35,268 bases of DNA from an uncultured Dehalococcoidaceae bacterium (GTDB lineage Bacteria > Chloroflexota > Dehalococcoidia > Dehalococcoidales > RBG-16-60-22): contig CAZOMF010000003.1 of the NCBI GenBank assembly GCA_964580635.1, forward strand, positions 1 to 35,268, given 5' to 3'. Below are positions 6,869 through 34,041 of this stretch, one piece after another (the first letter of the stretch is position 1; every line of letters begins with the position of its first letter). Both the position numbers and the translations under genes were made by a program. The notes beneath the pieces are model-generated. The model was not told the DNA's origin and ran no database searches. It worked only from the letters and a program-made list of their open reading frames with translations.

Positions 6869-7633
6869 CTACATGACCGAGGCGCCGGAGACGTGCAGCA
6901 CCTGGCCGGAGATGTCGACGGCGGTCACATCCGAGGCAAAGAACAACGTCGCGTTGGCGATATCGCTCGGCGCGGTTGCCCGTCCCAGCGGGATCTCCTT
7001 GATGAGCCGGTCGACGACTGCCTGCTTGTCGTCCGCCTTGATGAAATTGGTCGGGGAGGGCCCGGGGGCCACGCAGTTAACGCGGATATGGTTCCCGGCC
7101 TCCACGAACGCCAGCTGCTTGGTGAAGACATCGATGGCGGCCTTGGCCTGCGCGTACACGCCGACGCCGTGACTGTACATGTGGCTGCTGCCGGAGCCGA
7201 TGTTGACGATGGCGCCGCCGCCCTGCTGCCGCATCTGGGGGACGACCGCCGCCGCCATTAGCATGGGATTGAAGAGGTTGAGGGCGATCTCCTTCTCCCA
7301 GATTTCCGGCTTCTGCTGCTCGATGGGCCCGCCGCCCATGATGCCGCCGGCCACGTTGCAGAGGATATCGATGCGTCCGTACTCCTCGATGACCTGCTTG
7401 ACCATGGCATCGACGTCGTCCTTCTTGGTCGCGTCCGCCTTGATGGCCACGGCCTTGACACCCATTTTCTTGAGCGTATCGGCGGTGAGCTTGACGTCGT
7501 CCAGGTTGATGTCCGTGACGGCGATGCTGGAGCACCCTTCCCGCGCCAGCGTGATGGCGATTTCCTTCCCGAAGCCGATCTGGCTGCCGGCGCCGGTCAC
7601 GAGGGCCACTTTACCTTTAAATCCCAGATCCAT
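6869..7633 (-). CDS. SDR-family oxidoreductase (FabG-like)
   Basis: VALVTGAGSQIGFG is the TGxxxGxG motif. NVAG, the catalytic YAQAKAA (YxxxK) and PGPSPT are also present. An AGGAGG SD lies upstream of the ATG at 7633. Confidence 0.85.
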   Translation of the reverse strand: MDLGFKGKVALVTGAGSQIGFGKEIAITLAREGCSSIAVTDINLDDVKLTADTLKKMGVKAVAIKADATKKDDVDAMVKQVIEEYGRIDILCNVAGGIMGGGPIEQQKPEIWEKEIALNLFNPMLMAAAVVPQMRQQGGGAIVNIGSGSSHMYSHGVGVYAQAKAAIDVFTKQLAFVEAGNHIRVNCVAPGPSPTNFIKADDKQAVVDRLIKEIPLGRATAPSDIANATLFFASDVTAVDISGQVLHVSGASVM

Positions 7634-7668
7634 GGGTACCTCCTGTTTTCACGTCGAAATTCCGCACC

Positions 7669-7698
7669 ATTATATAACAAACACCCGGCGGAGTGGAA
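7669..7698 (-). promoter_or_regulatory. candidate promoter of the SDR gene (-10 TATAAT)
   Basis: The minus strand reads ...TTCCACTCCGCCGGGTGTTTGTTATATAATGG. There is a perfect TATAAT (plus coordinates 7674-7669) about 35 nt upstream of the ATG. The -35 is weak (TTCCAC). Confidence 0.35.
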
Positions 7699-7756
7699 AC
7701 GGAACACAGGAGATAGTGAGGAGCCGCAGACAAATTTCCGGTGGTCAGAAAATACG

Positions 7757-7788
7757 AAAAAAGGGAGCAGCGCCGTATCGCTGCTCCC
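7757..7788 (-). terminator. rho-independent terminator closing the peptide-maturation operon
   Basis: A perfect 10-bp stem pairs gggagcagcg (7763-7772) with cgctgctccc (7779-7788). On the minus strand it is followed by UUUUUU (plus-strand aaaaaa at 7757-7762). It lies about 155 nt downstream of the small ORF stop. Confidence 0.75.
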
Positions 7789-7942
7789 TTTCCCAGGAAA
7801 GGGATGGCTCTGGTCCATTGTCGAGCGGAACGGCAGCCCCCGGAACGATGAGGCTGACACCTCATCATCTTTGGAGCATCGATGTAATCGATCCCTCGTC
7901 GCGAGAAATGAGGTCGGAAAGGGTGCCTTCCGTTACGGCGGT

Positions 7943-8092
7943 CTACGGACAGCAGATGCCAAAATTGGGCTGGTTCTGGGCGACGGGGCCTGAGACGCCG
8001 CCGTCGATCGAGCTGCCGCCCTGGCAGGCGAGGAGTGTCACGTCGATGACTTCGATTTCCATGGCGGGCTTCACATACGAGTCCTTCATCAT
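7943..8092 (-). CDS. candidate RiPP precursor peptide, 49 aa (48 from the second ATG): MMKDSYVKPAMEIEVIDVTLLACQGGSSIDGGVSGPVAQNQPNFGICCP
   Basis: I hand-translated this from the minus strand; it is below the length cut-off of the ORF track. AAGGAGG (plus coordinates 8098-8104) lies 4 and 7 nt upstream of the tandem ATGs at 8092 and 8089. The first ATG overlaps the rSAM stop as TGATG. The ORF ends at TAG (7945-7943). It has a charged leader-like N-terminal half, a Gly/Ser/Pro-rich C-terminal half and three Cys (C23, C47, C48). Confidence 0.65.
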   Translation of the reverse strand: MMKDSYVKPAMEIEVIDVTLLACQGGSSIDGGVSGPVAQNQPNFGICCP

Positions 8093-9120
8093 CACACCTC
8101 CTTTCTTTGCGTTATATAGCTGTACTTGAGGTGGGCGTTTCGGCAGGCAGTGGGGGCCGGACTCGTCACGGATCCGGTCTCACTGTAGGCTACCCCCATA
8201 CAGCGGTGGCAGAATGCGGCTATGGCGCATGCTTTACACTCGGTCATGTCGTCCTCGGTGACCGAACGCAGCTGTTCCAGTTCCTTGCAGGGATGTGTTT
8301 TCCATAGTTCTTGGAAACCGGTTTCCAGCAGGTTCCCTATCCGCATCGGCATGAGCAGGCAGGGGAACACATCCCCGTTCGGGGCGACCGAGCAGATGCC
8401 TTTACCGGCTTTGCAGGGGCCGACTTTCGCGGCCGCTTGACTTTCCTCGATCCATTGCTGTCCCATCCCCTTGCAGAGCTGCTGCGAGGCGGCTTCGTGA
8501 CCGAAGGGTTCCATCGAACCGCTCTTGCCGGGCACGAACTCGGACGAAAGATGGACGTTGACGCCCAGTTTCGTGCCGAGCGCCTTGATGTCCGGTATCT
8601 CGTGGACGTTGCTGTCCATTACGTTCCCTTGCAGGCCCACCGTGACCTCGTGATGTTTCAGTAGCCGGATCGCCTCCATGAGCCGGTCGAAGGAGCCGGG
8701 CACCCCGGTGATGGCGTCATGGGTCTGACTGCACGCTCCGTGCAGGCTCAGTCCGACCTGGACCGGCTCCAGCAGCGCCAGTTCGTAGGCAGTCGTCGGC
8801 GTGAGAAGCGTCCCGTTCGTCAGGATCGTCAGCAGGAAACCGCGGTTCCTGGCGTACCAGGCGATGTCCATGAAGTCCTCCCGGACGAGCACCTCGCCGC
8901 CGGTGAACATCAGGTACATGGTGCCCGCGTCCGCCAGCTGGTCCAGGACGACGGTACACTCTTTGAGTGTCATTTCACGCGGAGAGCGGGTATCCACGTA
9001 GCAGTGGGTGCACCTCAGGTTGCAGCGGTGCGTCAGCTCGATGGACACCTGGAACGGGACCAGATGGTCCGCCGCCCGTTTCATAACTCCGTGCAGTTTC
9101 GGTCGCAGGATGGTACCCAT
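8092..9120 (-). CDS. radical SAM / SPASM-domain peptide-modifying enzyme
   Basis: ELTHRCNLRCTHCY is the CxxxCxxC motif. The C-terminal SPASM-type Cys motifs are CKAGKGICSVAPNGDVFPC and CKACAIAAFCHRC. The start is placed at ATG 9120 (MGTILRPK), which has AGGAG 7 nt upstream. The track start at 9147 would overlap the PqqD gene. Confidence 0.85.
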   Translation of the reverse strand: MGTILRPKLHGVMKRAADHLVPFQVSIELTHRCNLRCTHCYVDTRSPREMTLKECTVVLDQLADAGTMYLMFTGGEVLVREDFMDIAWYARNRGFLLTILTNGTLLTPTTAYELALLEPVQVGLSLHGACSQTHDAITGVPGSFDRLMEAIRLLKHHEVTVGLQGNVMDSNVHEIPDIKALGTKLGVNVHLSSEFVPGKSGSMEPFGHEAASQQLCKGMGQQWIEESQAAAKVGPCKAGKGICSVAPNGDVFPCLLMPMRIGNLLETGFQELWKTHPCKELEQLRSVTEDDMTECKACAIAAFCHRCMGVAYSETGSVTSPAPTACRNAHLKYSYITQRKEV

Positions 9121-9130
9121 GACAGTGCTC

Positions 9131-9424
9131 CTAGGCTCCCTTGACACTGAGCAGCCCGCCGTCCAGCAGCTGCTGGCAGAAGTCCAGCGAGTCCCGCTCG
9201 GCCACGTCCGGCTCGGTGTTGAAGGTATCGGACAGCTTGGATGCGACGTTCGATATGTCGTTGCGGCCGTCCAGCAGGCACCAGATGGCGCTCGCGGTCT
9301 TGTTCAGGACGCGGATGGTGCCGTTATCGCGGTCGGCAATGACGACCTCTCCCGCGATGTTACGCCAGATGACGTCCTCACTCTGGCGGGGGACCATTTC
9401 CAGGCAAACGGATTCATTGGGCAT
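9131..9424 (-). CDS. PqqD-family protein (RiPP recognition element-like)
   Basis: It is 97 aa. The pattern ...VIWRNIAGEVVIADRDNGTIRVLNKTASAIWCLLDGRNDISNVASKL...DSLDFCQQLLDGGLL matches the PqqD/RRE winged-helix family. It overlaps the upstream kinase gene by 11 nt. Confidence 0.8.
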   Translation of the reverse strand: MPNESVCLEMVPRQSEDVIWRNIAGEVVIADRDNGTIRVLNKTASAIWCLLDGRNDISNVASKLSDTFNTEPDVAERDSLDFCQQLLDGGLLSVKGA

Positions 9425-10256
9425 GTTCGATTACCTCCCAGAAAGTAGTGTCAGGTTTAAATCCCAGCGTGTAGCACGGAACGGCCTGGGCCAGACGGGC
9501 GCTTATCTCGGCGCGTTCCTGGAATGTTTTCCGGTCCGATTGCTCGAAGAGCGGCGCCAGGTCGAAGAACTGGCACAGCAACTGCGGGTAGGCTTTCGTT
9601 GTGGAGAGCGGCGTGAGACGCACCTCCGGAGCGTGCTCCAGGAAGAAGATGGCGGCGAGATCGCCCTTTCGCGCGGATGTTCGGGGTACTTCCCCTGTGA
9701 GGGGAGAGCCGGTGATCTGGAACCGGCCGCCGCGGGTGCTGAGCAGCACCGCTTCATCATTCAGCACAGTCCGGTGGCCGGCCAGCTTGGCGACCGTGCT
9801 CTTGCCGGAACCGGAAACCCCGGTGAACAGGTAGAAACGCTCGCCGGATACCACCCCGCACCCGTGTACGATGTGATACTTCACCGCCGCCTGCCGGTAT
9901 TTCTTCAGGACGCCGGCGTACACTCCCCGCAGCAGGTAGCTCATCAGTCGGTAGTCCGCATCCCGGTGGAACAAGGCCTTCTGTGTCCTGACGGCGAGCG
10001 CCCGCCTGTCCCAGTCCAGGCGGCAGTCTATCAGGTCGGGAACGGTATAGTACCTGCTTCCGTTCTGGTGCGCGCGGCTGGCCCTGAGGATTCGCCGTGC
10101 CTGGGCGGGCGTCAGGTTGGAATCCAGCGTGAACGATAGATCGAAGTCCGGTTCCCGGTCGGTCAGGAAAGGCCGGTACGTCTCGGCCATGTCGGTCATG
10201 AACCCGGCATCGTTGGACGAGAATCGCAATGAGGTGTCACCGAGTCTGATGTTCAT
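9414..10256 (-). CDS. HprK-related P-loop kinase-like protein
   Basis: Starting from the internal ATG at 10256 gives MNIRLGDTSLRF..., 280 aa. The Walker A motif is FTGVSGSGKSTVAKLAG, in a context like the C-terminal domain of HPr kinase/phosphorylase relatives. The ATG overlaps the upstream stop as ATGA. The 173-aa N-terminal extension in the track ORF is Arg/Pro/Gly-rich and lies inside the peptidase gene. Confidence 0.7.
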   Translation of the reverse strand: MNIRLGDTSLRFSSNDAGFMTDMAETYRPFLTDREPDFDLSFTLDSNLTPAQARRILRASRAHQNGSRYYTVPDLIDCRLDWDRRALAVRTQKALFHRDADYRLMSYLLRGVYAGVLKKYRQAAVKYHIVHGCGVVSGERFYLFTGVSGSGKSTVAKLAGHRTVLNDEAVLLSTRGGRFQITGSPLTGEVPRTSARKGDLAAIFFLEHAPEVRLTPLSTTKAYPQLLCQFFDLAPLFEQSDRKTFQERAEISARLAQAVPCYTLGFKPDTTFWEVIEHAQ

Positions 10257-10891
10257 TGGGCCGGCTCTCCTGCAGCAGCTGGTTTTTCGGAGATTTGTTC
10301 GCTTCGTGAAAAAAGACGCAAGGCGGCTGCTGTGACCGGGGTGAGCAGCCGGTTGCATACGTCGTTTCGGTCGGGTGAAGGCGAGGGATAGCGGCCGTTC
10401 CGGACATAGCGCCGCCAGGCTGTGGCGAGTCTCAGTGAGAAAAGCGAGATAGACGCGAAGACCAGCAGGCTGAGCTTGCCGGTCCAGTGGTCGGTATCGA
10501 TCGTGCCGTGCGTGCCGCGGATGCGCTGGACCGTTCCGATGACGCAGGCGTCTTCGATATAGCTGCCGTCGGGGTTGGCGTCTCCCTTTTCCAGGTAGTA
10601 CAGACGGCCGTCCCTTTGTTTCCTGCCGATGACCCGGTGGATGACCCAGGTGCCCTGTTTCCGGAACACCGCGATGTCTCCCCACGCCACGCTCGCAGCA
10701 CCCGCCGTGCGGATGAGTACCATGTCTCCCTTGCAGAGTACCGGACGCATACTGTCCGATCCTACCCGGCACCATAACGTGGCGTGCCGCTGCAGGACTT
10801 CTTCCCAGAAATCATAGGGTACGCATTTCGGGGTGCCGGCGACCGGCATCTCTGTTTTCGGCTGTCGTTGCTGCATATTGGTATCGCACAC
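10253..10891 (-). CDS. S24/S26-family serine peptidase (SipW/Sec11-like motif order) with C-terminal TM segment
   Basis: The motif order is GSDSMRPVL...GDMVLI...GDIAVF...WVIHRVIG...EKGDAN, i.e. Ser motif, GD boxes and the HR motif as in S26B-type signal peptidases. A hydrophobic segment LSLLVFASISLFSL lies near the C-terminus. The start codon is uncertain (GTG 10891, ATG 10876 or ATG 10849), and none has a clear SD. Confidence 0.65.
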   Translation of the reverse strand: MCDTNMQQRQPKTEMPVAGTPKCVPYDFWEEVLQRHATLWCRVGSDSMRPVLCKGDMVLIRTAGAASVAWGDIAVFRKQGTWVIHRVIGRKQRDGRLYYLEKGDANPDGSYIEDACVIGTVQRIRGTHGTIDTDHWTGKLSLLVFASISLFSLRLATAWRRYVRNGRYPSPSPDRNDVCNRLLTPVTAAALRLFSRSEQISEKPAAAGEPAQ

Positions 10892-11153
10892 GTACAGGAT
10901 GAAGAGATATAGTTCTAAAACATTGTTCTATTTTAAGGGGTTTTCCGTAATTTAATGGTTTGCGTCCAGTAAAAAAATGGTTTCAATTATAAGAAAAAGG
11001 AGAGAATCCCGGCAAAAAATGATGGTCAATCCGGGAAATACCGAAAAATGCTCGCCGTCCGATAGTACGGGGGTTAGGGCCGGCGACGGGGAAGGTCAGA
11101 GTCAGGTAAGAAGGGCGTTCAGGCGCTGGTGGTACTGGTGCTGCCCAAAGGAA

Positions 11154-11180
11154 GAGGGCGGGTACCAGGTACCCGCCCTC
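11154..11180 (-). terminator. GC-rich hairpin terminator downstream of the 1276-aa gene
   Basis: gagggcgggtacc (11154-11166) pairs with ggtacccgccctc (11168-11180) as a 13-bp stem. On the minus strand it is followed by UUCCUUUGGG, a modest U tract. It lies 47 nt after the stop at 11227. Confidence 0.5.
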
Positions 11181-11226
11181 TGGAAGTCGGTGAGGTATGA
11201 CTCCCCCGCGGGGAATCACCCGGTTG

Positions 11227-14200
11227 TTACTGGGGGATGTTGAACAGCAGGTAGAGCGTCCCTCCCGCGTCTTCGTAGCTGATGTTCCAGGTGGTGCCCA
11301 GCGAGGGATCAGCGGGATGGCCCAGGTCTATCTGGAGGTAGAACGTATCGTTGCTCCAGACCGCCGCACCTGCGGGAATGTCAGGGAACGATACGTCGCC
11401 GTCGAGGATAGTGTTGTTGGGCGGCCAGCTGCTGAGGCTCATGTGGACGTTATAGATTTTCTCCGCCCCCAGGTTGCGCAGCCGTACCTTGAGCGCTTCG
11501 GAGAAGATCTTGGTCCGCCGGTTGTAGTTATAGGAGACCATCTTGTACTGGACCGGTACGACCAGCGCATCCGTGGCGGCGGTTACCTCGTAGTCGCAGC
11601 CGCTGAAGGTCAGGTCCACCGTGCCGGCATCGCGGAAGTGGAAGGTATAGGTGCCCGGCAGCAGCTCCATCGTCGGCTGATCGAACCATTGCGCATCTCC
11701 AGTGGGACCGCCATAGGAGATCTGCCCGTCGTAGTTGAGCGTCACGGTGGTCGTCTGCCAGGTCACCGTGAAGTCGCTGTCCGGGACATCCACGCTGATC
11801 TTGGCTTCCGCGGTGCCCTGATATTGCATCTCGAAGGAGTACGTCCCCGCGAATACCTCGCCGGTCGTTTCGCCCGGAGCGGAGCTGCCGGTCAGCGTGC
11901 CCGGATTGGCCGGGAACCATTGGGTCGTGTAGGTGGCGCCGTTGCCCCAGCGCGCGTGACCGCCGTCGAGCGGCGTGGCGTCGCACGTTTCCAGCCGCAG
12001 CGTCAGCAGGTTGGTCTGGTAGTTGAAGAAGGAGTCCAGCGAGACGTCCTGCGTCACCACCTTGGTCGTGGAGTTGTAGCGCATCTCGTAGGACATGGTG
12101 GGGTTGCTGGCCGGACGGACGTCGATTGTTTTGCCCGGGTAGCTGGCATCGAAACCTGTCGGCTGCGGCACGAACCACGTTGTGTAGGTGGCGCCGTAGC
12201 CGCCGCGGCCCTGCCCGCCGTCGAGCGGCGCGCCCAGGTGGTCGGTGAGGACCAGGACGGCCACGTTGAGCGTCGTCTGGACCGGCTCGATGGTCACGTT
12301 CGCCCGTCCGCCGTGACGGAAGTCGAACAGATAGGTGCCCGGCAGCAGTTCCTTGGTCGGCTGGAACGTCGGCGTCGAGTTGAACCAGGTGCTATCGCCG
12401 GTGGCACCGCCGTAGGAGATACTGTCGGAATAGTTGAAGGTGACCGTGCTGGTCTGCCAGGTGAGCGTGGTATTGGCGTTGGGAATATTGACGCTGACCT
12501 TGGCTTCTGAAGTGGCTGCGTACTGCATCTGGAAGGAGTACGTGCCAGGGAAGATCTCGGCGGTCGTCTCGCCGGGCGCCGTGGCGCCGGTGAGCGTCCC
12601 CGGATTGTCCGGCCACCATCGGGTCGTGTAGGTGGCGCCGTTGCCCCAACGCGGCTTGCCGCTATCGAGCGGCGTGCCGGTATGCGTTTCCAGCCGCAGC
12701 GTCAAGGCGATGGTCTGGAAGTTGAAGACTGGATTGACCGCGATGTCCTGTGTCAGGTGCGGGCTGTTGGTGTGGTTCCAGACGGCCCAGACCTCGAGGT
12801 CGCCTGTGCTGGAGGAGAAGGGGGCGTAGAGGTGGCCTGAGGCATCCGTGTACCCCATGTCATGGGTGGAGCCCAACGTGTACTTGACGAGGGCATTCTC
12901 GAGGGGGCTGCCCATGCTGTCGGTGACATAGACATCGACCACCACGGCCCACGGATCGTAGTCGACGTAGTCGCTGACTGCGTTACCCGCGCCGAGCGGG
13001 TTCGTCGTCGCCTGGTAGGGACCGCTGGAAGCGCCCCACCAGTTGTTGAGGGCGTTGACCGTGAACAGTGAGGTCGTGTTATTGATACCGTAGCTCGTAT
13101 TGCTCTCGATCTCACTCAAGTTGATGGCCACTGAGTAGGAGCTGTTGCTGGCAACACCGGCGTCGTCCTGGATGTAGACGCCCTGGTCGTTCCCCGTGAT
13201 GGTCTCGCCGGTCAATGCGACGCTGATGTCGCCGTCTCCCTGGGTGTAGATCTCGTAGCCGTAGAGTCCGTTGTTCTGGAGCATGTTGTTACCGCCGCTG
13301 ACGCTGACCGACGAGCCGTATTCCTTGTCCTCGTCGGTAATGAGCGCGCCGCCGGTGGTGTTGTTGTGGAAGTTGTTGCCGTTCAACGAAAGGACGATGT
13401 CCACGTCGCCGGAGTAGCCGTCGTACTCGTTGCCGGCGTAGAGGCCCCATTGGCAGTCGTAGATTTCGTTGCCGGAGATACCGACGGCTTTGGTCACGTG
13501 AGGGAACGAGCCGAAGAGCGGTCCGGTGAAGTCGTTCTCTACGTAGATGCCGGCGGAGTTGCTGCCGTCGGAGGCGGCCGGCGTGTTGTAGCCGTGGATG
13601 ACGTTCCCGGTGATAGTGCCGTTGGACTGGGAACCCATTTCTATGGCGTACCCGAAGTCCGCGAACGTCTTGTAGAACGTGTTGCCGGTGATGGTCGCGT
13701 TCACGTAGTCATGGGTCAGGAGGGCAACCCGTCCCGCGTCGATGAAGGTGTTGCCAGAGACCGTCACCGCCGCCCGGGACGCGTCGGTGTAACCGGGCGC
13801 CCGGAAATACGTGCCGATCTCGCTGTAGAAGCCGCTCGCGTCGGGAGCGGAGATGTTCTCGATGACGTTGCCAGACAGACTGCCGGTGCTGTCATAGTAC
13901 AGCACGCCGTAGTTGTTGCCCGCGATGAGCTGGAAGTCCATCGTCATGCCGGTGAGGGTCACGCCGGTGGAATTGACCACCCTGATGGCTACCTGGCGGG
14001 TGGGTGAAGAGCCGATGTTCCAGTTCTGTGTGGTCGAGGGCTGGTAGATGACCGTCGCCGGGTTGTCCCCCACGATGGTCAGGCCGGCGTGTCCGTCGAT
14101 GTTCAATGTCTCGTCGTAGGTGCCGGCGCCCACGTGGATGGTATCGGGCGAGCCGGTCATGTCGATGGCGTCCTGGATACTCATGCCGTTCATGACGTAG

Positions 14201-15057
14201 TAGGTGTCCCCGGCGAGGTTATAGATGAGAACGTCGGAGTAGGTCGCGGGGGCGGCGAGGAGACCCTGCGCGAACGTCTGGGCGTCGGCCAGTGTCGTCC
14301 GGTAGAACCACTGCATGTAGTTGTCGGGGGAACGGAAGGCGTAGACAACGTAGCCGAACTGTGCCGGAACGGTGATGTTGGTGAGGTCGTAGTACGTCGG
14401 GGGGTCTTTCTCCAGCAGCAGCGGGATCGATTCGGCGGCGTTGAAGGTACCGCTGAAGACTACCGTATCGGTGCTGGCGCCGGCCGTCTGAACGCTCACG
14501 CCACCCCAGGCATTGCCGCTGGTGGTAACATTGGTCACGCCGACGTTGGTGGAATCCAGGATCTGCACGCCGAAGCCGCTGACCGTGTTATCGACCTCGA
14601 TATTACTGAGGCTGGCCGTGCTGACGGTGTTGAGGTCGATGCCGGTCTTGCCGGAGTTTACCACCTTGATGTTGTCCAGCGTGATGTTGCTGACGTGGGT
14701 GATCTTGAAGCCATAGCTGGAGCCTGATGGGCTGGTCCCGATCAGGGTAAGCCCGGTGATAGTCGTGCCGTCCCCGAAGTTCTGGATGGCATAGCCGGTC
14801 GAGGCGCTCGCGTTCACAGTTGTCGCGTCGATGCCCGCGCCTTGGATGGTAAGTGACTTGCCCTGGAGGTTCAGAGTCTCCGGATACGTTCCGGCTGGCA
14901 CTGTGATCGTGTCACCGCTGTTAGCGGCGTTGATGGCGTCCTGAATGGTCGTTGATACATTGATTGTGCTAGCAGCCGCTACCGGCGCTGCCGGTAGCAC
15001 GAGGGCGCACAATATGAGCAGAATGCTGAAAATAAAACCTGTCGTTTTCTTTTTCAA
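11227..15057 (-). CDS. large secreted right-handed parallel beta-helix repeat protein with C-terminal tandem beta-sandwich-like modules
   Basis: I place the start at TTG 15057, which has AAGGAG 7 nt upstream. This gives MKKKTTGFIFSILLILCALVLPAAPVAAAS, a classic signal peptide. The N-terminal half has repeated G-x-N / I-x-G-N / NNT turns typical of pectin-lyase-fold (PbH1/NosD-like) repeats. The C-terminal half contains duplicated modules of about 146-150 aa. The track start at GTG 15162 adds 35 residues ahead of the signal peptide. Confidence 0.75.
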   Translation of the reverse strand: MKKKTTGFIFSILLILCALVLPAAPVAAASTINVSTTIQDAINAANSGDTITVPAGTYPETLNLQGKSLTIQGAGIDATTVNASASTGYAIQNFGDGTTITGLTLIGTSPSGSSYGFKITHVSNITLDNIKVVNSGKTGIDLNTVSTASLSNIEVDNTVSGFGVQILDSTNVGVTNVTTSGNAWGGVSVQTAGASTDTVVFSGTFNAAESIPLLLEKDPPTYYDLTNITVPAQFGYVVYAFRSPDNYMQWFYRTTLADAQTFAQGLLAAPATYSDVLIYNLAGDTYYVMNGMSIQDAIDMTGSPDTIHVGAGTYDETLNIDGHAGLTIVGDNPATVIYQPSTTQNWNIGSSPTRQVAIRVVNSTGVTLTGMTMDFQLIAGNNYGVLYYDSTGSLSGNVIENISAPDASGFYSEIGTYFRAPGYTDASRAAVTVSGNTFIDAGRVALLTHDYVNATITGNTFYKTFADFGYAIEMGSQSNGTITGNVIHGYNTPAASDGSNSAGIYVENDFTGPLFGSFPHVTKAVGISGNEIYDCQWGLYAGNEYDGYSGDVDIVLSLNGNNFHNNTTGGALITDEDKEYGSSVSVSGGNNMLQNNGLYGYEIYTQGDGDISVALTGETITGNDQGVYIQDDAGVASNSSYSVAINLSEIESNTSYGINNTTSLFTVNALNNWWGASSGPYQATTNPLGAGNAVSDYVDYDPWAVVVDVYVTDSMGSPLENALVKYTLGSTHDMGYTDASGHLYAPFSSSTGDLEVWAVWNHTNSPHLTQDIAVNPVFNFQTIALTLRLETHTGTPLDSGKPRWGNGATYTTRWWPDNPGTLTGATAPGETTAEIFPGTYSFQMQYAATSEAKVSVNIPNANTTLTWQTSTVTFNYSDSISYGGATGDSTWFNSTPTFQPTKELLPGTYLFDFRHGGRANVTIEPVQTTLNVAVLVLTDHLGAPLDGGQGRGGYGATYTTWFVPQPTGFDASYPGKTIDVRPASNPTMSYEMRYNSTTKVVTQDVSLDSFFNYQTNLLTLRLETCDATPLDGGHARWGNGATYTTQWFPANPGTLTGSSAPGETTGEVFAGTYSFEMQYQGTAEAKISVDVPDSDFTVTWQTTTVTLNYDGQISYGGPTGDAQWFDQPTMELLPGTYTFHFRDAGTVDLTFSGCDYEVTAATDALVVPVQYKMVSYNYNRRTKIFSEALKVRLRNLGAEKIYNVHMSLSSWPPNNTILDGDVSFPDIPAGAAVWSNDTFYLQIDLGHPADPSLGTTWNISYEDAGGTLYLLFNIPQ
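11596..12033 (-). repeat. intragenic tandem module, copy 2 (146 codons)
   Basis: This copy reads SFFNYQTNLLTLRLETCDATPLDGGHARWGNGATYTTQWFPANPGTLTGSSAPGETT...TFSGC. It aligns with copy 1 at an offset of 699 nt. For example, 11901-12000 and 12600-12699 are about 80% identical at nucleotide level by eye. Confidence 0.8.
12283..12732 (-). repeat. intragenic tandem module, copy 1 (150 codons)
   Basis: This copy reads PVFNFQTIALTLRLETHTGTPLDSGKPRWGNGATYTTRWWPDNPGTLTGATAPGETT...NVTIEP. Roughly two thirds of residues are identical to copy 2. The 83-codon spacer (12034-12282) looks like a third, more diverged partial copy (LVLTDHLGAPLDGGQGRGGYGATYTTWF). Confidence 0.8.
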
Positions 15058-15371
15058 CGCATGGCTCCTTTCTTCATAGTGTTTGCTCGGGATTTGAAGT
15101 GTTTTTTCGTCGCGTGTCGTCGAGGGACATGATAGAGAATGTTCTGTCGTCTGTTGTTTCACCTCCTCCTAAAAGCAGCTGTAGTTTCAAGCCTTATCAC
15201 TGTCGGGCAGCAACTTTCAGTTCTCCCGGTACGGACATGAATGAGAGTGTCAGGTCGGATATCTTTCTACGAGCATTGGCTTTTTTCTTCGGTATTTTTG
15301 TTTATAAACAGGTACAGTTTTCACACGATTGCTGACAAAACATGCAGTTTCCCACATTTTTCTACATCGTG

Positions 15372-31193: not shown

Positions 31194-31538
31194 TCAGGCG
31201 GGGCCCGGCTGGAGGATCATTTTTACCGCGGTGAGGAAGTCCGCCCATTGCATCCGCTCCTGTGCGAGCTTTTTCACGCCCTTCTGGGTCAGGTGGTAGT
31301 ACCGCCGCTGCCGTCCGTTCGGCAGCCGCTCCCATGACCCGGCGATGAGCCCGGAGGTCTCCAGGCGATGGAGGGCCGGGTAGAGCGTACCTTCCTTGAA
31401 GCGGAAATAGCCCTGGCTGCGGGAATCCAGTTCCTTGACGATCTGGTAGCCGTACATCGGCTGTCGCTCCAGGAGGCAGAGGAGCAGGCTGTTGGAACTG
31501 CCTTTGAGGAGCTCGTGTTTCGGCGCCATGACGCTCAC
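31194..31538 (-). CDS. PadR-family transcriptional regulator
   Basis: LLLCLLERQPMYGYQIVKELDSRSQGYFRFKEGTLYPALHRLETSGLI is the canonical PadR winged-helix segment. Confidence 0.9.
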   Translation of the reverse strand: MSVMAPKHELLKGSSNSLLLCLLERQPMYGYQIVKELDSRSQGYFRFKEGTLYPALHRLETSGLIAGSWERLPNGRQRRYYHLTQKGVKKLAQERMQWADFLTAVKMILQPGPA

Positions 31539-31624
31539 CTCCTGCCGGTCTCTACCTCGAAGGTTGAGGCCTGACCCAATACTAGCAATAAACCCCTCTC
31601 ATTGCAAGGGTGCCCGGTCTCAAC

Positions 31625-31653
31625 TTGAGTCGTTAAAACCGACATGTTATAGT
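31625..31653 (+). promoter_or_regulatory. candidate promoter for tRNA-Leu (TTGAGT-N17-TATAGT)
   Basis: The -35 TTGAGT lies at 31625-31630 and the -10 TATAGT at 31648-31653, with a 17-nt spacer. The tRNA 5' end is at 31667. Confidence 0.4.
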
Positions 31654-31666
31654 ACGGTCGAACCGG

Positions 31667-31751
31667 GGGGAAGTGCCGGAACTGGCAGACGGGCCAGACT
31701 TAGGATCTGGTGCAGCGATGCGTGGGGGTTCGAGTCCCCCCTTCCCCACCA
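31667..31751 (+). tRNA. tRNA-Leu(UAG): tRNA-Leu (anticodon UAG), long variable arm, CCA encoded
   Basis: It is 85 nt. The acceptor is GGGGAAG/CTTCCCC, the anticodon stem CCAGA/TCTGG with loop CTTAGGA, the variable arm TGCAGCGATGCGT, and the T arm GGGGG-TTCGAGT-CCCCC. Confidence 0.9.
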
Positions 31752-31819
31752 GAGTTTTAATTTCCTATGCCGGTCTCTAATAGTGGGTATATTAAATATA
31801 ACGATACGGAGGCTAAAAA

Positions 31820-32242
31820 ATGGCTGAAACGAAATACGGGAAGCATGTCATCAGAGATGCATTTAAAAAACACCATCAGCTGGAGTGTGTCTCGGCACAC
31901 GGCGATGAGATTGATGCCGACTGCATTATTACGCACCAGGTTATCTATAAGCCGGAACTAATGTTGAAAGAATCCCATTTCCACGACGACTTTCAACAAC
32001 TACTTTGTTTTCTCGGCACCAACCCGATGGACTGCCGGGATTTCGGCGGGGCGGAAATAGAGATATGCCTGGGTGAGGAACAAGAAAAGCATATCATCAA
32101 TTCTCCCACCATCGTTTCTCTTAAAAAAGGGTTGCCCCACGGACCACTGAATTTTAAAAGTATCCCCAGGCCGATTATCTTTCTGGAAATAATGCTGACA
32201 CGTCGATATCACGTGACGCAGCTGAAAGATAAAGATAAGTAG
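31820..32242 (+). CDS. hypothetical cupin-like protein, paralog 1
   Basis: It is 140 aa and starts MAETKYGKHVI. The SHFHDD...E.EICLGEE..H......V..KKGLPHGPL pattern resembles a cupin barrel. GGAGG lies 9 nt upstream. Confidence 0.6.
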   Translation: MAETKYGKHVIRDAFKKHHQLECVSAHGDEIDADCIITHQVIYKPELMLKESHFHDDFQQLLCFLGTNPMDCRDFGGAEIEICLGEEQEKHIINSPTIVSLKKGLPHGPLNFKSIPRPIIFLEIMLTRRYHVTQLKDKDK

Positions 32243-32336
32243 GCCTTTTAGTGACACGGGATTAACGAAACGTACCGGTCTGCTGCCAACGCAATGCGAT
32301 ATCGGGCGATTTTTATATCAAGGAGGACAGGGGCAA

Positions 32337-32771
32337 ATGACTGAAACGAAATATGGCAAATATATCATAACGGAACCGAAGTTACCCCAAACACCGTCTC
32401 CGCCAGCAACGGGAGAGCGCAGCGGACAGATTGTAATACTCTCGGATGGAGAGGTTATCGAGGGGGCTTTTTATCTGAACTGCGCCCTGATATGGAAAGC
32501 CTCGGAGAGGGGCAGCCCGGGTGGTAGCCACACCCATGACTGGGACGAGTACATCGGCTTTGTCGGCAGCGACCCCGCCGACCCGCACGCTTTAAACGGG
32601 GAGGTCGAGATATACCTGGGAGATGAAAAGCATGTCCTTACCCGGAGCTGTGCTGTCTTCATTCCGAAAGGGCTTTTACACTGCCCCATCATCTTCAGGA
32701 AGGTTGATAAGCCCATTTTCTATTTCAGCACTGGCCCTAAACACGTCTACGATAAAGAGCAGAAATCATAA
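32337..32771 (+). CDS. hypothetical cupin-like protein, paralog 2
   Basis: It is 144 aa and starts MTETKYGKYII. The SHTHDWDE...EVEIYLGDEKH......VFIPKGLLHCPI region aligns with paralog 1. AAGGAGG lies upstream. Confidence 0.6.
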   Translation: MTETKYGKYIITEPKLPQTPSPPATGERSGQIVILSDGEVIEGAFYLNCALIWKASERGSPGGSHTHDWDEYIGFVGSDPADPHALNGEVEIYLGDEKHVLTRSCAVFIPKGLLHCPIIFRKVDKPIFYFSTGPKHVYDKEQKS

Positions 32772-32819
32772 TGCCTAAATAATGATCATTTACACTGAAT
32801 AAACTGCATAGAGGAGGTA

Positions 32820-33287
32820 ATGCTAATGGAACTTACTTATGACAATATCCTTCGTTGGATGAAAGGATACTTTAAGGTTTACAGTACTTACGGACAAGAC
32901 TCCGAAACAGCGGATCGAATGAATGATTACTTTGCTCCGGATTTGAGATTCATACCGTACATTGCCGCGATAGGTGGACCGGAAGGTGGCTTCTTCAGCC
33001 GCAATGAGTTCATGCACACCGCGAAATCACACTCCTCGTGGTATGAAAAACTAACACCAGAGGATATCACCGTTGATGAAAGACGAAAGATGGCCGCTGT
33101 ACGGTTCGGGATGGAGGTTATAAACAGAAAGACAGGAGAGGTGGTGGTCAAAAAAAGTGCTATGGCTCATTACGAGTTGGTACTTGATGAGAATAACTCT
33201 ATTAAGATTAAAACGATTCGGTTCTTTTGGGAGGTTTTGCCGCCTGGAGTACCGGAGTTCTATGATTTGTTCGAGGACGATGCGTAG
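32820..33287 (+). CDS. hypothetical NTF2/SnoaL-like protein
   Basis: It is 155 aa with a GAGGAGG SD upstream. Size and alternating-strand pattern are compatible with an NTF2-like fold. No motif is firmly recognised. Confidence 0.5.
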   Translation: MLMELTYDNILRWMKGYFKVYSTYGQDSETADRMNDYFAPDLRFIPYIAAIGGPEGGFFSRNEFMHTAKSHSSWYEKLTPEDITVDERRKMAAVRFGMEVINRKTGEVVVKKSAMAHYELVLDENNSIKIKTIRFFWEVLPPGVPEFYDLFEDDA

Positions 33288-33332
33288 ACAACAGGGGTAT
33301 TTTACCCGGTATATCGGGAGATATCGGCAGGC

Positions 33333-34037: not shown

Positions 34038-34041
34038 GGTT

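What the first reader, a model, noticed from the sequence alone, without database searches (positions are those of the whole stretch)
7943..10891. Overlapped five-gene peptide-maturation operon with a hybrid, apparently undescribed architecture (S24/S26 peptidase - HprK-like kinase - PqqD/RRE - rSAM/SPASM - small Cys peptide)
All five minus-strand ORFs are packed with coupled junctions:
- peptidase/kinase overlap as ATGA at 10256-10253
- kinase/PqqD overlap by 11 nt
- the rSAM ATG at 9120 follows the PqqD stop by 10 nt
- the small ORF overlaps the rSAM stop as TGATG

The unit is bracketed by an AT-rich spacer and a hairpin terminator upstream (10892-11180) and a strong terminator downstream (7757-7788).

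A stand-alone PqqD-like RRE plus an HPr-kinase-like enzyme is a pairing known from some lasso-peptide clusters. Here there is no lasso cyclase (Asn-synthetase-like) and no transglutaminase-like leader protease. Instead there is a SPASM-domain radical SAM enzyme, as in sactipeptide, ranthipeptide or mycofactocin-type systems, together with an S24/S26 serine peptidase. I do not recognise this combination as any named RiPP class. It predicts a peptide that is radical-SAM crosslinked, possibly phosphorylated, and cleaved by a Ser-protease.
Basis: partly seen in the sequence, partly recalled or inferred. Interest (0 to 1): 0.88.

Follow-up and report, generated by a model that had tools for sequence, protein, structure and literature searches.

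The report
Uncharacterised radical-SAM peptide-maturation operon, recurrent
This is a real, tightly packed five-gene bacterial operon that matures a small cysteine-containing peptide; the same gene set and peptide family recur in many environmental genomes, but no paper found here studies them, so it is a good lead to a new modified peptide rather than a known system.

Summary
On the minus strand of 7943-10891 lie five coupled genes: a SipW-type S26 signal-peptidase-like protease, a ScmC-family HprK/PEPCK-fold P-loop protein, a stand-alone PqqD RRE, a radical SAM/SPASM enzyme and a 48-49-aa peptide. A promoter-like site in an AT-rich spacer lies upstream, and a 16-bp-stem terminator downstream.

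The set is not a one-off. The same genes in the same order occur in at least 7 other loci, with G+C from 43 to 58%. The small ORF belongs to a family of about 50 unnamed peptides. These have an invariant YxKP leader and an almost invariant C-terminal core, P[IV][AP]QL[QE]PFFGLC(PP)C. The window carries the rarer ...FGICCP form. Codon changes show purifying selection on the peptide.

"Undescribed" needs one qualification. The ScmC + PqqD + rSAM/SPASM triad has a bioinformatically named but uncharacterised relative, the SynChlorMet cassette (NCBIfam TIGR04248-51; Pfam ScmC). This operon falls far below all of its cut-offs, has one rSAM instead of two, adds a peptidase and has an identifiable precursor. 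I found no paper on the peptide family or the architecture.

The chemistry is inferred, not shown: a Cys crosslink, phosphorylation and leader cleavage. Verdict: a new variant of the RRE-dependent radical-SAM RiPP kind. Interest 0.62.

The parts
10986..11015 (-). Promoter-like site (TTGCCG-18 nt-TATAAT) in the AT-rich spacer upstream of the operon
   Evidence: It is the only sigma-70-like match in 7500-11400, with 10 of 12 positions. The spacer 10892-11060 is 36.7% G+C. This is a consensus match only and is not proof of function.
10253..10876 (-). SipW/ER-type (S26B) signal-peptidase-like serine protease, the putative leader peptidase. The longest ORF reaches GTG 10891.
   Evidence: Family scores: Pfam Peptidase_S24 at 30.7 bits; NCBIfam TIGR02228 signal peptidase I at 64.3 bits, above the 51.85 cut-off. 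Conserved motifs are S-x-S-M-x-P, H-R and KGDAN across 7 cassette homologues. There is no N-terminal membrane anchor: the maximum 19-residue hydropathy in the N-terminus is 0.15, against 2.34 for the LepB-type enzyme of L015. One hydrophobic C-terminal segment scores 1.79. The gene occupies the same position in L005, L010, L013, L014, L016 and L022.
9414..10256 (-). ScmC-family protein with an HprK/PEPCK-fold P-loop, a putative ATP-dependent peptide kinase
   Evidence: It carries precomputed Pfam PF27840 ScmC. NCBIfam ScmC scores 27.2 bits (E 2e-6) and HprK_rel_A 18.6 bits, both far below their cut-offs. The AF2 model has pLDDT 94.2. Foldseek matches PEPCK at E 4e-8 and HprK/P at E 1e-6 to 3e-5. 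Invariant residues are H131, the G146-x-S-G-x-G-K-x-T154 P-loop and D167. Start ATG 10256 is supported by homologue N-termini.
9131..9424 (-). Stand-alone PqqD-type RiPP recognition element (RRE)
   Evidence: Pfam PqqD scores 52.1 bits over the whole profile. Weak NCBIfam hits go to ScmD (33 bits), lasso PqqD (30 bits) and PQQ PqqD (29 bits). It sits in the same position between ScmC and the rSAM in L005, L009, L010, L013-L018 and L021/22.
8092..9120 (-). Radical SAM/SPASM peptide maturase with no fused RRE
   Evidence: Pfam Radical_SAM scores 79.2 bits and SPASM 40.2 bits. Across 31 orthologues the invariant cysteines are C33-x3-C37-x2-C40 plus C236, C254, C295, C298, C304, C307 and C326, with C243 nearly invariant. 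No NCBIfam family reaches its cut-off; the best is AhbD at 150 of 500 bits. The AF2 model has pLDDT 90.9. The nearest folds are SkfB, BlsE, SuiB, PqqE and anSME.
7943..8092 (-). Precursor peptide (M)MKDSYVKPAMEIEVIDVTLLACQGGSSIDGGVSGPVAQNQPNFGICCP. Leader about residues 1-22, variable linker, conserved C-terminal core.
   Evidence: An SD (AAGGAGG) lies inside the rSAM 3' end, and this SD-plus-start arrangement is conserved in 6 other loci. It is one of about 50 distinct homologous peptides. In 52 peptides Y0, P+3 and E+8 of the leader and both Cys are invariant or nearly so. Third-codon-position differences dominate, 372 against 144 and 147, with many synonymous changes. There is no Pfam or NCBIfam model.
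7757..7794 (-). Intrinsic terminator closing the operon
   Evidence: A 16-pair stem (8 G-C pairs) with a 6-nt loop, followed by a T-run. It lies 149 nt after the peptide stop.
11153..11181 (-). Hairpin terminator of the upstream 1311-aa beta-helix gene, which insulates the operon from it
   Evidence: A 13-pair G+C-rich stem followed by UCUUCCUUU. Folding of 11130-11226 gives -46.4 kcal/mol, z = -3.6 against shuffles. Rfam hits here are below threshold.

Best explanation
This is a self-contained biosynthetic operon for a ribosomally made, post-translationally modified peptide (RiPP). It belongs to an uncharacterised but recurrent family.

Shown:
- The operon is a transcription unit of five translationally coupled genes.
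- Its last gene encodes a 48-49-aa precursor from a conserved peptide family. The family has an MK-E-x-Y-E-K-P-x-[MI]-x-[TS]-E-x-[IV]-[ED] leader, a variable linker and a P[IV][AP]QL[QE]PFFGLC(PP)C core.
- The four proteins are a stand-alone PqqD RRE, an rSAM/SPASM enzyme with all cysteines for three Fe-S clusters, an HprK/PEPCK-fold P-loop protein of the ScmC family with its catalytic-type residues intact, and a SipW-type Ser/His signal-peptidase homologue that lacks the usual N-terminal membrane anchor.

Inferred mechanism:
1. The PqqD protein binds the YxKP leader, as lasso-type RREs bind YxxP leaders, and presents the peptide to its partners.
2. The rSAM/SPASM enzyme installs a radical-mediated crosslink in the core. 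The most likely one is a thioether from one of the two invariant Cys to a nearby residue.
3. The ScmC protein uses ATP to phosphorylate a hydroxyl of the peptide. A Ser, Thr or Tyr sits in the linker just after the leader in nearly all family members.
4. The anchorless S26-type protease removes the leader at a small-x-Gly site such as C-Q-G|G or A-A-G|S.

The mature product would be a short, roughly 15-25-residue, Cys-containing modified peptide. Its core is unusually conserved, which points to a fixed physiological target or role rather than an arms-race antibiotic.
For: - Operon anatomy and couplings.
- Domains. ScmC fold and conserved H/P-loop/D residues. rSAM cysteines and fold.
- Synteny, peptidase-ScmC-PqqD-rSAM-peptide in the same order: L005, L010 (decayed copy), L013, L014, L015, L016 and L021/L022. 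Partial sets on cut contigs: L009, L011, L017/18.
- A search that started from the peptide alone landed next to the same enzymes.
- Peptide family, conservation and coding signature.
- The same YxKP leader appears next to ScmC+PqqD in other contexts (L001, L008, L004, L006). This ties the leader to that protein pair.
- HprK homologues phosphorylate precursor peptides in lasso clusters (PMC8498205, read).
- The cassette peptidases lack the N-terminal anchor of true signal peptidases.
Against: - No step of the chemistry has been observed.
- The family has no positionally invariant Ser or Thr in the core. Unlike the lasso kinase substrates and the L001/L008/L004/L006 peptides, the window family does not end in Ser, so the phospho-acceptor is unknown.
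- L019 has the peptide, peptidase and rSAM but neither ScmC nor PqqD; it carries a second rSAM instead. L017/18 and L009 lack the peptidase next door. The kinase, RRE and peptidase are therefore not all obligatory.
- In L015 a membrane-anchored LepB-type S26 enzyme takes the peptidase position.
- The rSAM's best NCBIfam hits are heme-pathway enzymes (AhbD, NirJ), though far below their cut-offs.
Confidence: 0.75

Rival explanations
1. The machinery is the same, but the product is a peptide-derived redox cofactor or metal-binding molecule used inside or at the surface of the producer (the PQQ/mycofactocin logic). It would not be a secreted bioactive peptide.
For: - The C-terminal core is almost invariant across about 50 peptides from genomes of 43-62% G+C. 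PqqA and MftA cores behave this way; antibiotic RiPP cores usually do not (general knowledge).
- The core ends in a CxxC (CPPC) or CC motif, typical of redox or metal sites.
- The window operon has no exporter or immunity gene.
- MftC and PqqE are among the rSAM's hits, and PqqE is among its nearest folds.
Against: - No partner oxidoreductases or the further tailoring genes seen in pqq/mft operons are present.
- A dedicated leader peptidase of the signal-peptidase type, and ABC transporters next to L014, fit export.
- MftC (128 of 265 bits) and PqqE (89 of 381 bits) are far below their cut-offs.
Confidence: 0.25
2. The ScmC protein is not a peptide kinase. It would be an ATP-dependent accessory or scaffold protein, or it phosphorylates something other than the precursor.
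For: - The core has no invariant Ser, Thr or Tyr, and the window family has no C-terminal Ser.
- Similarity to HprK is at fold and P-loop level only (TM about 0.3-0.5, 13-17% identity).
- The best structural matches are PEP carboxykinases, which phosphorylate a small molecule.
- L019 makes do without it.
Against: - The residues invariant in the family, H131, the P-loop Lys and D167, look like the catalytic set of HprK/P. That equivalence is recalled from memory; no residue-level alignment to HprK/P was made.
- The gene is translationally coupled between the peptidase and the RRE.
- Related ScmC/PqqD loci have peptides ending in Ser, the known target of lasso HprK-like kinases.
- A Ser, Thr or Tyr follows the leader in nearly all peptides.
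Confidence: 0.25
3. The S26-type peptidase does not remove the leader. It would process neighbouring large secreted proteins (the SipW-TasA logic), so the RiPP cassette proper has four genes.
For: - Large secreted repeat proteins lie next to the cassette in the window (1311-aa beta-helix protein), L001, L013, L017 and L019.
- The protein passes NCBI's signal peptidase I model.
- L017/18 and L009 lack the peptidase.
Against: - The stop/start overlap with ScmC (ATGA) and the fixed first position in at least 7 loci.
- It lacks the N-terminal anchor needed to face the periplasm.
- In L019 it sits between two rSAM genes.
- In the window a terminator hairpin separates it from the beta-helix gene.
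- The flanking large proteins are not homologous to each other.
Confidence: 0.12
4. This is not a RiPP system. The rSAM would be an AhbD/NirJ-like cofactor enzyme, and the small ORF would be a chance ORF.
For: The top NCBIfam hits are AhbD (150 bits) and NirJ2 (139 bits). JGI annotates one homologue as 'AdoMet-dependent heme synthase'.
Against: - All of these hits are 3-4-fold below their cut-offs.
- No ahb or nir genes are nearby.
- The small ORF is conserved in about 50 versions under purifying selection and with a conserved SD.
- A PqqD RRE is adjacent.
Confidence: 0.03
5. This is a degenerate or split lasso-peptide cluster.
For: The PqqD hits lasso RRE models weakly (30 bits). An HprK-like protein and a YxxP-type leader are lasso-associated features. 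NTP_transf_5 genes lie near L001, L008, L014 and L015.
Against: - No Asn-synthetase-like cyclase and no transglutaminase-like B2 protease occur in the operon or its flanks, in the window or in any of the syntenic loci.
- An rSAM/SPASM gene is always present instead.
Confidence: 0.03

Closest known systems
SynChlorMet (SCM) cassette of TIGRFAMs/NCBIfam: ScmC (TIGR04249), ScmD PqqD-like (TIGR04248), ScmE and ScmF rSAM/SPASM (TIGR04250/1); Pfam PF27840 ScmC
   Same: It uses the same three protein families together: a ScmC-family P-loop protein, a stand-alone PqqD and an rSAM/SPASM enzyme. The window proteins hit these models specifically (ScmC E 2e-6, ScmD E 4e-8, ScmE E 7e-35), and the kinase-like protein carries Pfam ScmC. 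Both are uncharacterised experimentally (no papers found).
   Different: - Scores are far below the equivalog cut-offs: 27 of 125, 33 of 100 and 121 of 400 bits.
- It has one rSAM rather than two.
- It adds an S26-type peptidase.
- A clear precursor peptide is present. For SCM, as I recall the TIGRFAMs description (from memory, not checked here), no precursor was identified.
Lasso-peptide clusters with HPr-kinase homologues (paeninodin, pseudomycoidin)
   Same: Both have a stand-alone PqqD RRE, a YxxP-type leader motif, and an HprK-like kinase acting on the precursor. A nucleotidyltransferase (NTP_transf_5) gene occurs nearby in several related loci (PMC8498205).
   Different: - There is no lasso cyclase and no B2 protease.
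- The modifying enzyme is an rSAM/SPASM.
- The window family's peptides do not end in the Ser that lasso kinases target.
Sactipeptide / ranthipeptide maturation systems (rSAM/SPASM thioether synthases such as SkfB, CteB, PapB)
   Same: Both have an rSAM/SPASM enzyme with two auxiliary clusters, RRE-dependent recognition and a Cys-containing core. SkfB is the best sequence and fold match in the PDB.
   Different: - The RRE is a separate protein.
- The core has only two Cys, in a fixed ...FFGLC(PP)C context.
- It adds a kinase-like protein and a signal-peptidase-like leader protease in place of the usual C39/S8/M16-type proteases.
- The crosslink is unproven.
Mycofactocin and PQQ pathways (MftA/B/C, PqqA/D/E)
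   Same: Both have a small precursor with a highly conserved C-terminal core, a PqqD-type chaperone and an rSAM/SPASM enzyme.
   Different: - MftC and PqqE cut-offs are not met.
- No downstream cofactor-tailoring genes are present.
- The kinase-like and S26-type genes are not part of those pathways.
SipW-type (ER/archaeal-type, S26B) signal peptidases, e.g. B. subtilis SipW in the tapA-sipW-tasA operon (from memory)
   Same: It passes NCBIfam TIGR02228 and has the Ser and His motifs and the GDAN box. Like SipW, it is encoded in an operon with its presumed substrate.
   Different: It has no N-terminal transmembrane anchor. The presumed substrate is a cytoplasmic RiPP precursor without a Sec signal peptide.

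Membership tests
SynChlorMet (SCM) cassette | ScmC equivalog (TIGR04249, cut-off 125 bits) | tested here: not met
   27.2 bits, E 2.2e-6, over the C-terminal P-loop half. It is a member of the broader Pfam ScmC family PF27840 by precomputed annotation.
SynChlorMet (SCM) cassette | ScmD PqqD-like equivalog (TIGR04248, cut-off 100 bits) | tested here: not met
   33.3 bits.
SynChlorMet (SCM) cassette | Two rSAM/SPASM proteins, ScmE and ScmF (cut-off 400 bits each) | tested here: not met
   The operon holds a single rSAM gene. It scores 120.6 bits on ScmE and 68.2 bits on ScmF.
RRE-dependent radical SAM/SPASM RiPP systems (sacti-/ranthipeptide-like) | Radical SAM CxxxCxxC cluster motif | tested here: met
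   C33-x3-C37-x2-C40 is invariant in 31 orthologues. PF04055 scores 79.2 bits.
RRE-dependent radical SAM/SPASM RiPP systems (sacti-/ranthipeptide-like) | SPASM domain with cysteines for two auxiliary clusters | tested here: met
   PF13186 scores 40.2 bits. C236, C254, C295, C298, C304, C307 and C326 are invariant, and C243 is at least 90% conserved.
RRE-dependent radical SAM/SPASM RiPP systems (sacti-/ranthipeptide-like) | RRE (PqqD-like), fused or adjacent | tested here: met
   A stand-alone PqqD at 52.1 bits lies immediately upstream. The rSAM domain begins at about residue 25, so the enzyme has no fused RRE.
RRE-dependent radical SAM/SPASM RiPP systems (sacti-/ranthipeptide-like) | Adjacent conserved precursor peptide with Cys in the core | tested here: met
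   The 48-49-aa ORF is coupled to the rSAM stop. In 52 family members both Cys are invariant.
RRE-dependent radical SAM/SPASM RiPP systems (sacti-/ranthipeptide-like) | Thioether (S-C-alpha, -beta or -gamma) crosslink in the product | not testable with these tools
   This needs MS/MS or NMR of the modified peptide.
Lasso peptide biosynthetic cluster | Asn-synthetase-like lasso cyclase (C protein) | tested here: not met
   No such domain occurs in the five operon genes or in the flanking ORFs scanned, nor in the syntenic loci.
Lasso peptide biosynthetic cluster | Transglutaminase-like leader protease (B2) | tested here: not met
   It is absent. The only protease is of S24/S26 type.
Lasso peptide biosynthetic cluster | PqqD-type RRE (B1) and a YxxP leader motif | tested here: met
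   PqqD is present, and NCBIfam lasso_PqqD_Bac scores 29.8 bits, below its cut-off of 80. The leader has YVKP, and Y and P are invariant in the family.
Signal peptidase I, archaeal/ER (SipW) type, S26B | Score above the TIGR02228 cut-off, with Ser and His catalytic motifs | tested here: met
   64.3 bits against a 51.85 cut-off. S-D-S-M-R-P, V-I-H-R-V and K-G-D-A-N are conserved in homologues.
Signal peptidase I, archaeal/ER (SipW) type, S26B | N-terminal transmembrane anchor that places the active site outside the membrane | tested here: not met
   The maximum 19-residue Kyte-Doolittle mean in the N-terminus is 0.15 (0.1-0.8 in the cassette homologues), against 2.34 in the LepB-type enzyme of L015.
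HPr kinase/phosphorylase-like P-loop superfamily | PEPCK/HprK-type fold with a Walker A loop and conserved His and Asp | tested here: met
   Foldseek matches PEPCK at E 4e-8 and HprK/P at E 1e-6 to 3e-5. H131, GxSGxGK[ST]T and D167 are invariant. Of 100 relatives, 85 hit ScmC, 68 HprK_rel_B and 62 HprK_rel_A, and 5 hit bona fide HPr(Ser) kinase.
HPr kinase/phosphorylase-like P-loop superfamily | Protein or peptide Ser kinase activity | not testable with these tools
   This needs an ATP-dependent assay with the precursor.
Heme/d1 rSAM enzymes (AhbD, NirJ); mycofactocin MftC; PqqE | Score above the family cut-off | tested here: not met
   AhbD 150 of 500 bits, NirJ2 139 of 500, MftC 128.5 of 265, PqqE 88.7 of 381.

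The most novel reading that the evidence does not exclude
The cassette makes a chemically new class of RiPP. The product would be a short peptide built on the near-invariant PFFGLC(PP)C core. It would carry a radical-SAM crosslink of a type not yet described, or a known thioether combined with phosphorylation by an HprK-like kinase. An anchorless signal-peptidase homologue recruited as leader peptidase would release it. It would serve a conserved physiological role, such as a redox or metal-binding cofactor or a signal, rather than acting as an antibiotic. More broadly, the trio of YxKP leader, PqqD and ScmC would be a portable recognition-and-phosphorylation module shared by lasso, rSAM and C25-peptidase peptide pathways.
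Probability: 0.35. Interest if true: 0.8.

Novelty: new variant of a known kind. Interest (0 to 1): 0.62.

Why it matters
- It defines a concrete, testable RiPP family: about 50 precursors with a sharply conserved core, plus a compact four-enzyme toolkit. I found no paper, Pfam model or NCBIfam model for the precursor.
- It gives the large, uncharacterised ScmC/HprK-related protein family a candidate substrate. That family has about 12,000 representative sequences at E <= 1e-10.
- It may supply a precursor type for the long-orphan SynChlorMet-like cassettes.
- It suggests that a signal-peptidase fold has been recruited as a cytoplasmic leader peptidase.
- If the chemistry proves new, it adds an enzyme set for peptide engineering. 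If it is a plain thioether, it is one more ranthi- or sactipeptide subfamily.

Tried and rejected
- **Genome scan.** It returned only 3 distant loci (L006-L008), so I have no organism names for close relatives.
- **Metagenome scan.** A 3-peptide alignment worked but gave only 4 loci.
- **Literature.** The following searches gave nothing relevant:
  - 'SynChlorMet'.
  - 'ScmC' plus 'radical SAM'.
  - HPr kinase + radical SAM + PqqD + RiPP.
  - radical SAM + SPASM + HPr kinase.
  - the peptide motif strings.
  - RRE-Finder + HPr.
  - SPASM + signal peptidase + PqqD, which returned only ruminococcin C.
  - The TIGR/Pfam accession search, which was swamped by 'scMe...' software names.
  - Haft & Basu 2011 (PMC3133131) is not held, so the SCM description rests on NCBIfam model names and my memory.
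- **Taxonomy.** Cluster look-ups returned no names for the close rSAM homologues P0024, P0023, P0040 and P0030 or for the window's housekeeping proteins. I can only say the window is bacterial, from RNase III with dsRBD, GlgB, PepA and MoeA.
- **PDB sequence search.** The kinase-like protein gave only marginal P-loop hits. The fold search was needed.
- **PADLOC.** Only generic viperin-type rSAM similarity appeared, so this is not a known defence system.
- **Rfam.** The operon and its leader gave only sub-threshold hits on the upstream terminator hairpins, so there is no riboswitch.
- **L017 upstream ORF.** The 122-aa ORF upstream of ScmC in L017 is not a peptidase homologue.

Full report
**1. 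What is in the sequence**

Listing ORFs over 7000-12000 shows five co-directional minus-strand ORFs:

| Coordinates | Length | Gene |
|---|---|---|
| 10253-10891 | 212 aa | peptidase |
| 9414-10256 | 280 aa from the ATG at 10256 | kinase-like (ScmC family) |
| 9131-9424 | 97 aa | PqqD |
| 8092-9120 | 342 aa from the ATG at 9120 | rSAM/SPASM |
| 7943-8095 | 50 aa | small peptide |

- ATGA lies at 10256-10253.
- An 11-nt overlap, atgcccaatga, joins the kinase-like gene and PqqD.
- A 10-nt gap with an AGGAG lies before the rSAM ATG.
- TGATG joins the rSAM and the peptide, preceded by AAGGAGG.

The boundaries also hold.
- A 16-pair terminator with a T-run lies at 7794-7757.
- The 169 nt upstream of the first gene are 36.7% G+C against 60.9% for the window. 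They contain the only sigma-70-like site of the region, TTGCCG-18-TATAAT at 11015-10986.
- A 13-pair hairpin at 11181-11153 ends the preceding 1311-aa gene.

There are two small corrections. Homologous peptidases begin 'MQ...', so ATG 10876 is the likelier start. The peptide family begins MK[ED]xY, so ATG 8089 or 8092 is likelier than GTG 8095.

**2. What the proteins are**

*Peptidase.* It matches Pfam Peptidase_S24 (30.7 bits) and passes NCBIfam signal peptidase I of the archaeal/ER (SipW) type, at 64.3 bits against a 51.85 cut-off. The S-x-S-M-x-P, H-R and KGDAN boxes are conserved in cassette homologues. Unlike true signal peptidases it has no N-terminal hydrophobic anchor: hydropathy is 0.15, against 2.34 for a LepB-type enzyme. 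It has only one C-terminal hydrophobic stretch.

*Kinase-like protein.* It has only marginal P-loop hits in the local Pfam copy and in PDB sequences.
- It carries the newer Pfam family PF27840 'ScmC' in precomputed annotation.
- It hits NCBIfam ScmC (27 bits, E 2e-6) and HprK-related kinase A (19 bits), far below their cut-offs.
- An AlphaFold model built on 16 homologues is confident, with pLDDT 94.2. It matches ATP-dependent PEP carboxykinases (E 4e-8) and HPr kinase/phosphorylases (E 1e-6 to 3e-5).
- H131, the GxSGxGK[ST]T loop and D167 are invariant in close and distant relatives.

"HprK-like" is therefore correct at fold and active-site level.

*PqqD.* It matches the whole Pfam profile at 52 bits.

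*rSAM.* It has Radical_SAM plus SPASM domains.
- C33/C37/C40 and seven further cysteines are invariant in 31 orthologues, and an eighth (C243) is nearly invariant.
- It has no fused RRE, since the rSAM domain begins at about residue 25.
- It reaches no NCBIfam cut-off. The best hit is AhbD at 150 of 500 bits, with ScmE at 121 of 400 and MftC at 128 of 265.
- Its model (pLDDT 90.9) is closest to SkfB, BlsE, SuiB, PqqE and anSME. SkfB is also the best PDB sequence hit.

**3. Does the set recur?**

Close homologues of the kinase-like protein are rare: 16 clusters in 5.8 billion proteins by the word-index search. The rSAM has about 30 clusters at 50-56% identity.

| Locus | Gene content |
|---|---|
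| L005 | full five-gene set, same order |
| L010 | full set, decayed: frameshifted kinase, internally deleted rSAM, transposase alongside |
| L013 | full five-gene set, same order |
| L014 | full five-gene set, same order |
| L015 | full set, but the peptidase is a LepB-type S26 enzyme |
| L016 | full five-gene set, same order |
| L021/L022 | full five-gene set, same order |
| L009 | ScmC-PqqD-rSAM, contig cut |
| L011 | ScmC-rSAM, contig cut |
| L012 | PqqD-rSAM-ScmC, contig cut |

These loci range from 43 to 58% G+C, so the carriers are diverse.

A search that started only from the peptide landed on two kinds of locus. L017/L018 carry ScmC-PqqD-rSAM-peptide with no peptidase. L019 carries rSAM2-peptidase-rSAM-peptide with no ScmC and no PqqD. 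The rSAM and the peptide are therefore the constant core. The peptidase, ScmC and PqqD are usual but not universal.

**4. The peptide**

A profile of seven peptides retrieved 51 clusters. All are 40-81 aa, unnamed and without Pfam domains. None matches any NCBIfam model.

In 52 peptides:
- The leader is M-K-E-[PT]-Y(52/52)-E-K-P(51/52)-x-[MI]-x-[TS]-E(51/52)-x-[IV]-[ED]-[ILV]-G.
- A variable linker of 3-20 residues follows. It nearly always contains Ser, Thr or Tyr, often before Pro.
- The C-terminal core is P(48)-[IV]-[PA]-Q(37)-L(43)-[QE]-P(50)-F(42)-F(48)-G(47)-L(49)-C(52)-(PP)-C(52), with 0-3 more residues in most.
- 44 peptides have CPPC, 7 have CC and 1 has CPQC.

The window peptide (...GPVAQNQPNFGICCP) is a divergent member of the CC minority.

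Across ten loci, differences at third codon positions outnumber those at first and second positions. The counts are 372 against 144 and 147 in the leader, and 275 against 186 and 126 in the core. There are 164 and 140 synonymous codon differences respectively. The SD inside the rSAM 3' end is conserved. The ORF is therefore a real gene under purifying selection.

**5. The wider module**

The ScmC profile finds 25,252 representative proteins at E <= 1e-3, 12,275 at <= 1e-10 and 1,152 at <= 1e-30. Of 100 top members, 85 hit ScmC, 68 hit HprK-related kinase B and 62 hit HprK-related kinase A, all below their cut-offs. This is a large, essentially unstudied family.

More distant ScmC+PqqD loci carry small ORFs with the same YxKP leader but other cores.
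- L001/2/3 and L008 (Thermomonas MAG) have ...YVKP...FETxALACGK...C...S next to an rSAM/SPASM and an NTP_transf_5 gene.
- L004 has ...YEPP...CKTPGS.
- L006 (Chloroflexia MAG) has ...YNKP...WGSDGS next to two C25 peptidases and no rSAM.

All four of these peptide types end in Ser. That is the residue HprK homologues phosphorylate in lasso precursors, where a nucleotidyltransferase can then glycosylate the phosphate (PMC8498205). This ties the YxKP leader to the PqqD/ScmC pair and supports a kinase role for ScmC in general.

The window's family does not end in Ser, so its acceptor is open.

**6. Mechanism**

Shown: gene content, coupling, conservation, folds and cofactor-binding residues.

Inferred:
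1. PqqD binds the YxKP leader.
2. The rSAM/SPASM enzyme crosslinks the core. The most likely link is a thioether from an invariant Cys, given that the closest relatives are thioether or crosslink synthases.
3. ScmC phosphorylates a hydroxyl, possibly the Ser, Thr or Tyr that follows the leader.
4. The anchorless S26-type protease removes the leader. A small-x-Gly motif precedes the linker in most peptides (A-A-G, A-N-G, C-Q-G, S-Q-G, V-A-G, T-A-G), which fits the -3/-1 rule of signal peptidases (general knowledge).

The extreme conservation of the core, its CxxC/CC ending and the lack of an exporter in the window operon lead me to give 0.25 to a cofactor, metallophore or signal role rather than an antibiotic.

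**7. Comparison with known systems**

- *SynChlorMet cassette (NCBIfam TIGR04248-51).* This is the closest named entity. It uses the same three protein families, but every equivalog cut-off is missed by a wide margin. It has two rSAMs and, as far as I recall, no known precursor.
- *Lasso clusters with HprK-like kinases.* They share the RRE, the leader motif and the kinase, but not the cyclase or protease.
- *Sacti- and ranthipeptide systems.* They share the rSAM/SPASM logic.
- *PQQ and mycofactocin.* They share the chaperone + rSAM + conserved-core logic.

It is not a member of any of these by the tests listed. None of my searches of 8.3 million full texts returned the cassette, the peptide motif or the combination. 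That library omits most subscription-journal papers, so absence there is not proof.

**8. Verdict**

The finding is real, and its reading as a RiPP operon of unnamed architecture is supported. It is a new variant of a well-known kind: RRE-dependent rSAM/SPASM peptide maturation.

It adds three things:
- a newly delineated precursor family;
- a candidate substrate for the ScmC/HprK-related proteins;
- a signal-peptidase homologue apparently recruited as leader peptidase.

Many uncharacterised rSAM-RiPP families exist, so a specialist would find it attractive rather than astonishing. Interest 0.62. There is a 0.35 chance that it turns out to be a chemically new RiPP class, which would deserve 0.8.

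Noticed in passing
L006:7878-15945 (Chloroflexia MAG CAVYQO010000009.1): A ScmC-like gene is followed by a 63-aa ORF with a YNKP leader motif that ends in ...GSDGS. A PqqD gene and two large C25 (gingipain-type) peptidases follow, and there is no rSAM. This suggests that YxKP leader + PqqD + ScmC is a portable module combined with different modifying enzymes.
   Followed up: partly
L019:3222-6126 (metagenome contig Ga0082335_1000451): This variant of the cassette has the same peptide family (…QLQPWFHLCPQCG), the S24-type peptidase and the orthologous rSAM, but no ScmC and no PqqD. A second rSAM (32% identical, no SPASM detected) lies upstream. A two-component system and a DUF11-type secreted protein lie downstream.
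   Followed up: partly
L010:1-3308 (GCA_016935765.1, JAFGQG010000141.1): A decaying copy of the five-gene cassette lies next to an rve-family transposase. The kinase-like gene is frameshifted and the rSAM has lost its middle, yet the peptide ORF (…SPFFGLCCGD, the closest relative of the window peptide) is intact.
   Followed up: partly
L013:9035-9280; also proteins P0192, P0193, P0164: Some precursor genes are tandem fusions. L013, P0192 and P0193 have two leader copies in one ORF, and the first copy has lost the Tyr and the core. P0164 has one leader followed by two core-like repeats (…DFGLCPPC… and …TFGLCSS).
   Followed up: no
L014:8996-9127: The precursor ORF in this locus has ATA where all other loci have the ATG start (…GGGGGTGATAACATAAAAGAACCATACGAAAAACCC). 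This is either a rare start codon or a recent inactivating mutation.
   Followed up: no
window 11227-15162 (minus strand); L001:8237-10606; L013:9604-11958; L017:6669-8099; L019:6225-8006: Large secreted repeat proteins, not homologous to one another, lie beside the cassette in five loci. They are beta-helix, CBM96/Disaggr, SdrD_B, Ice-binding/DUF7507 and DUF11 proteins. Response regulators or histidine kinases flank L013, L016 and L019. This may be chance, or a hint of a cell-surface or signalling role.
   Followed up: no
window 31500-35268: G+C drops from about 62% to about 48% for the last 3.8 kb of the window. This stretch encodes two branched-chain-amino-acid-type ABC ATPases (33333-34037 and 34042-34773). 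It may be a horizontally acquired segment or an assembly join.
   Followed up: no
L001:11630-12832, L008:9795-11135, L014:3912-5150, L015:9524-10672: NTP_transf_5-type genes accompany four ScmC/PqqD/rSAM loci; the L008 one is assumed from position only and was not scanned. The same nucleotidyltransferase family occurs in lasso clusters with HprK-like kinases. The window has none within the ORFs scanned.
   Followed up: partly
window 11141-11221 (minus strand): Sub-threshold Rfam hits fall on the two hairpins after the beta-helix gene: suhB/mmgR at 26.5 bits against a gathering score of 41, and sX14 at 22.8 against 80. They most likely reflect terminator-like structure only.
   Followed up: yes
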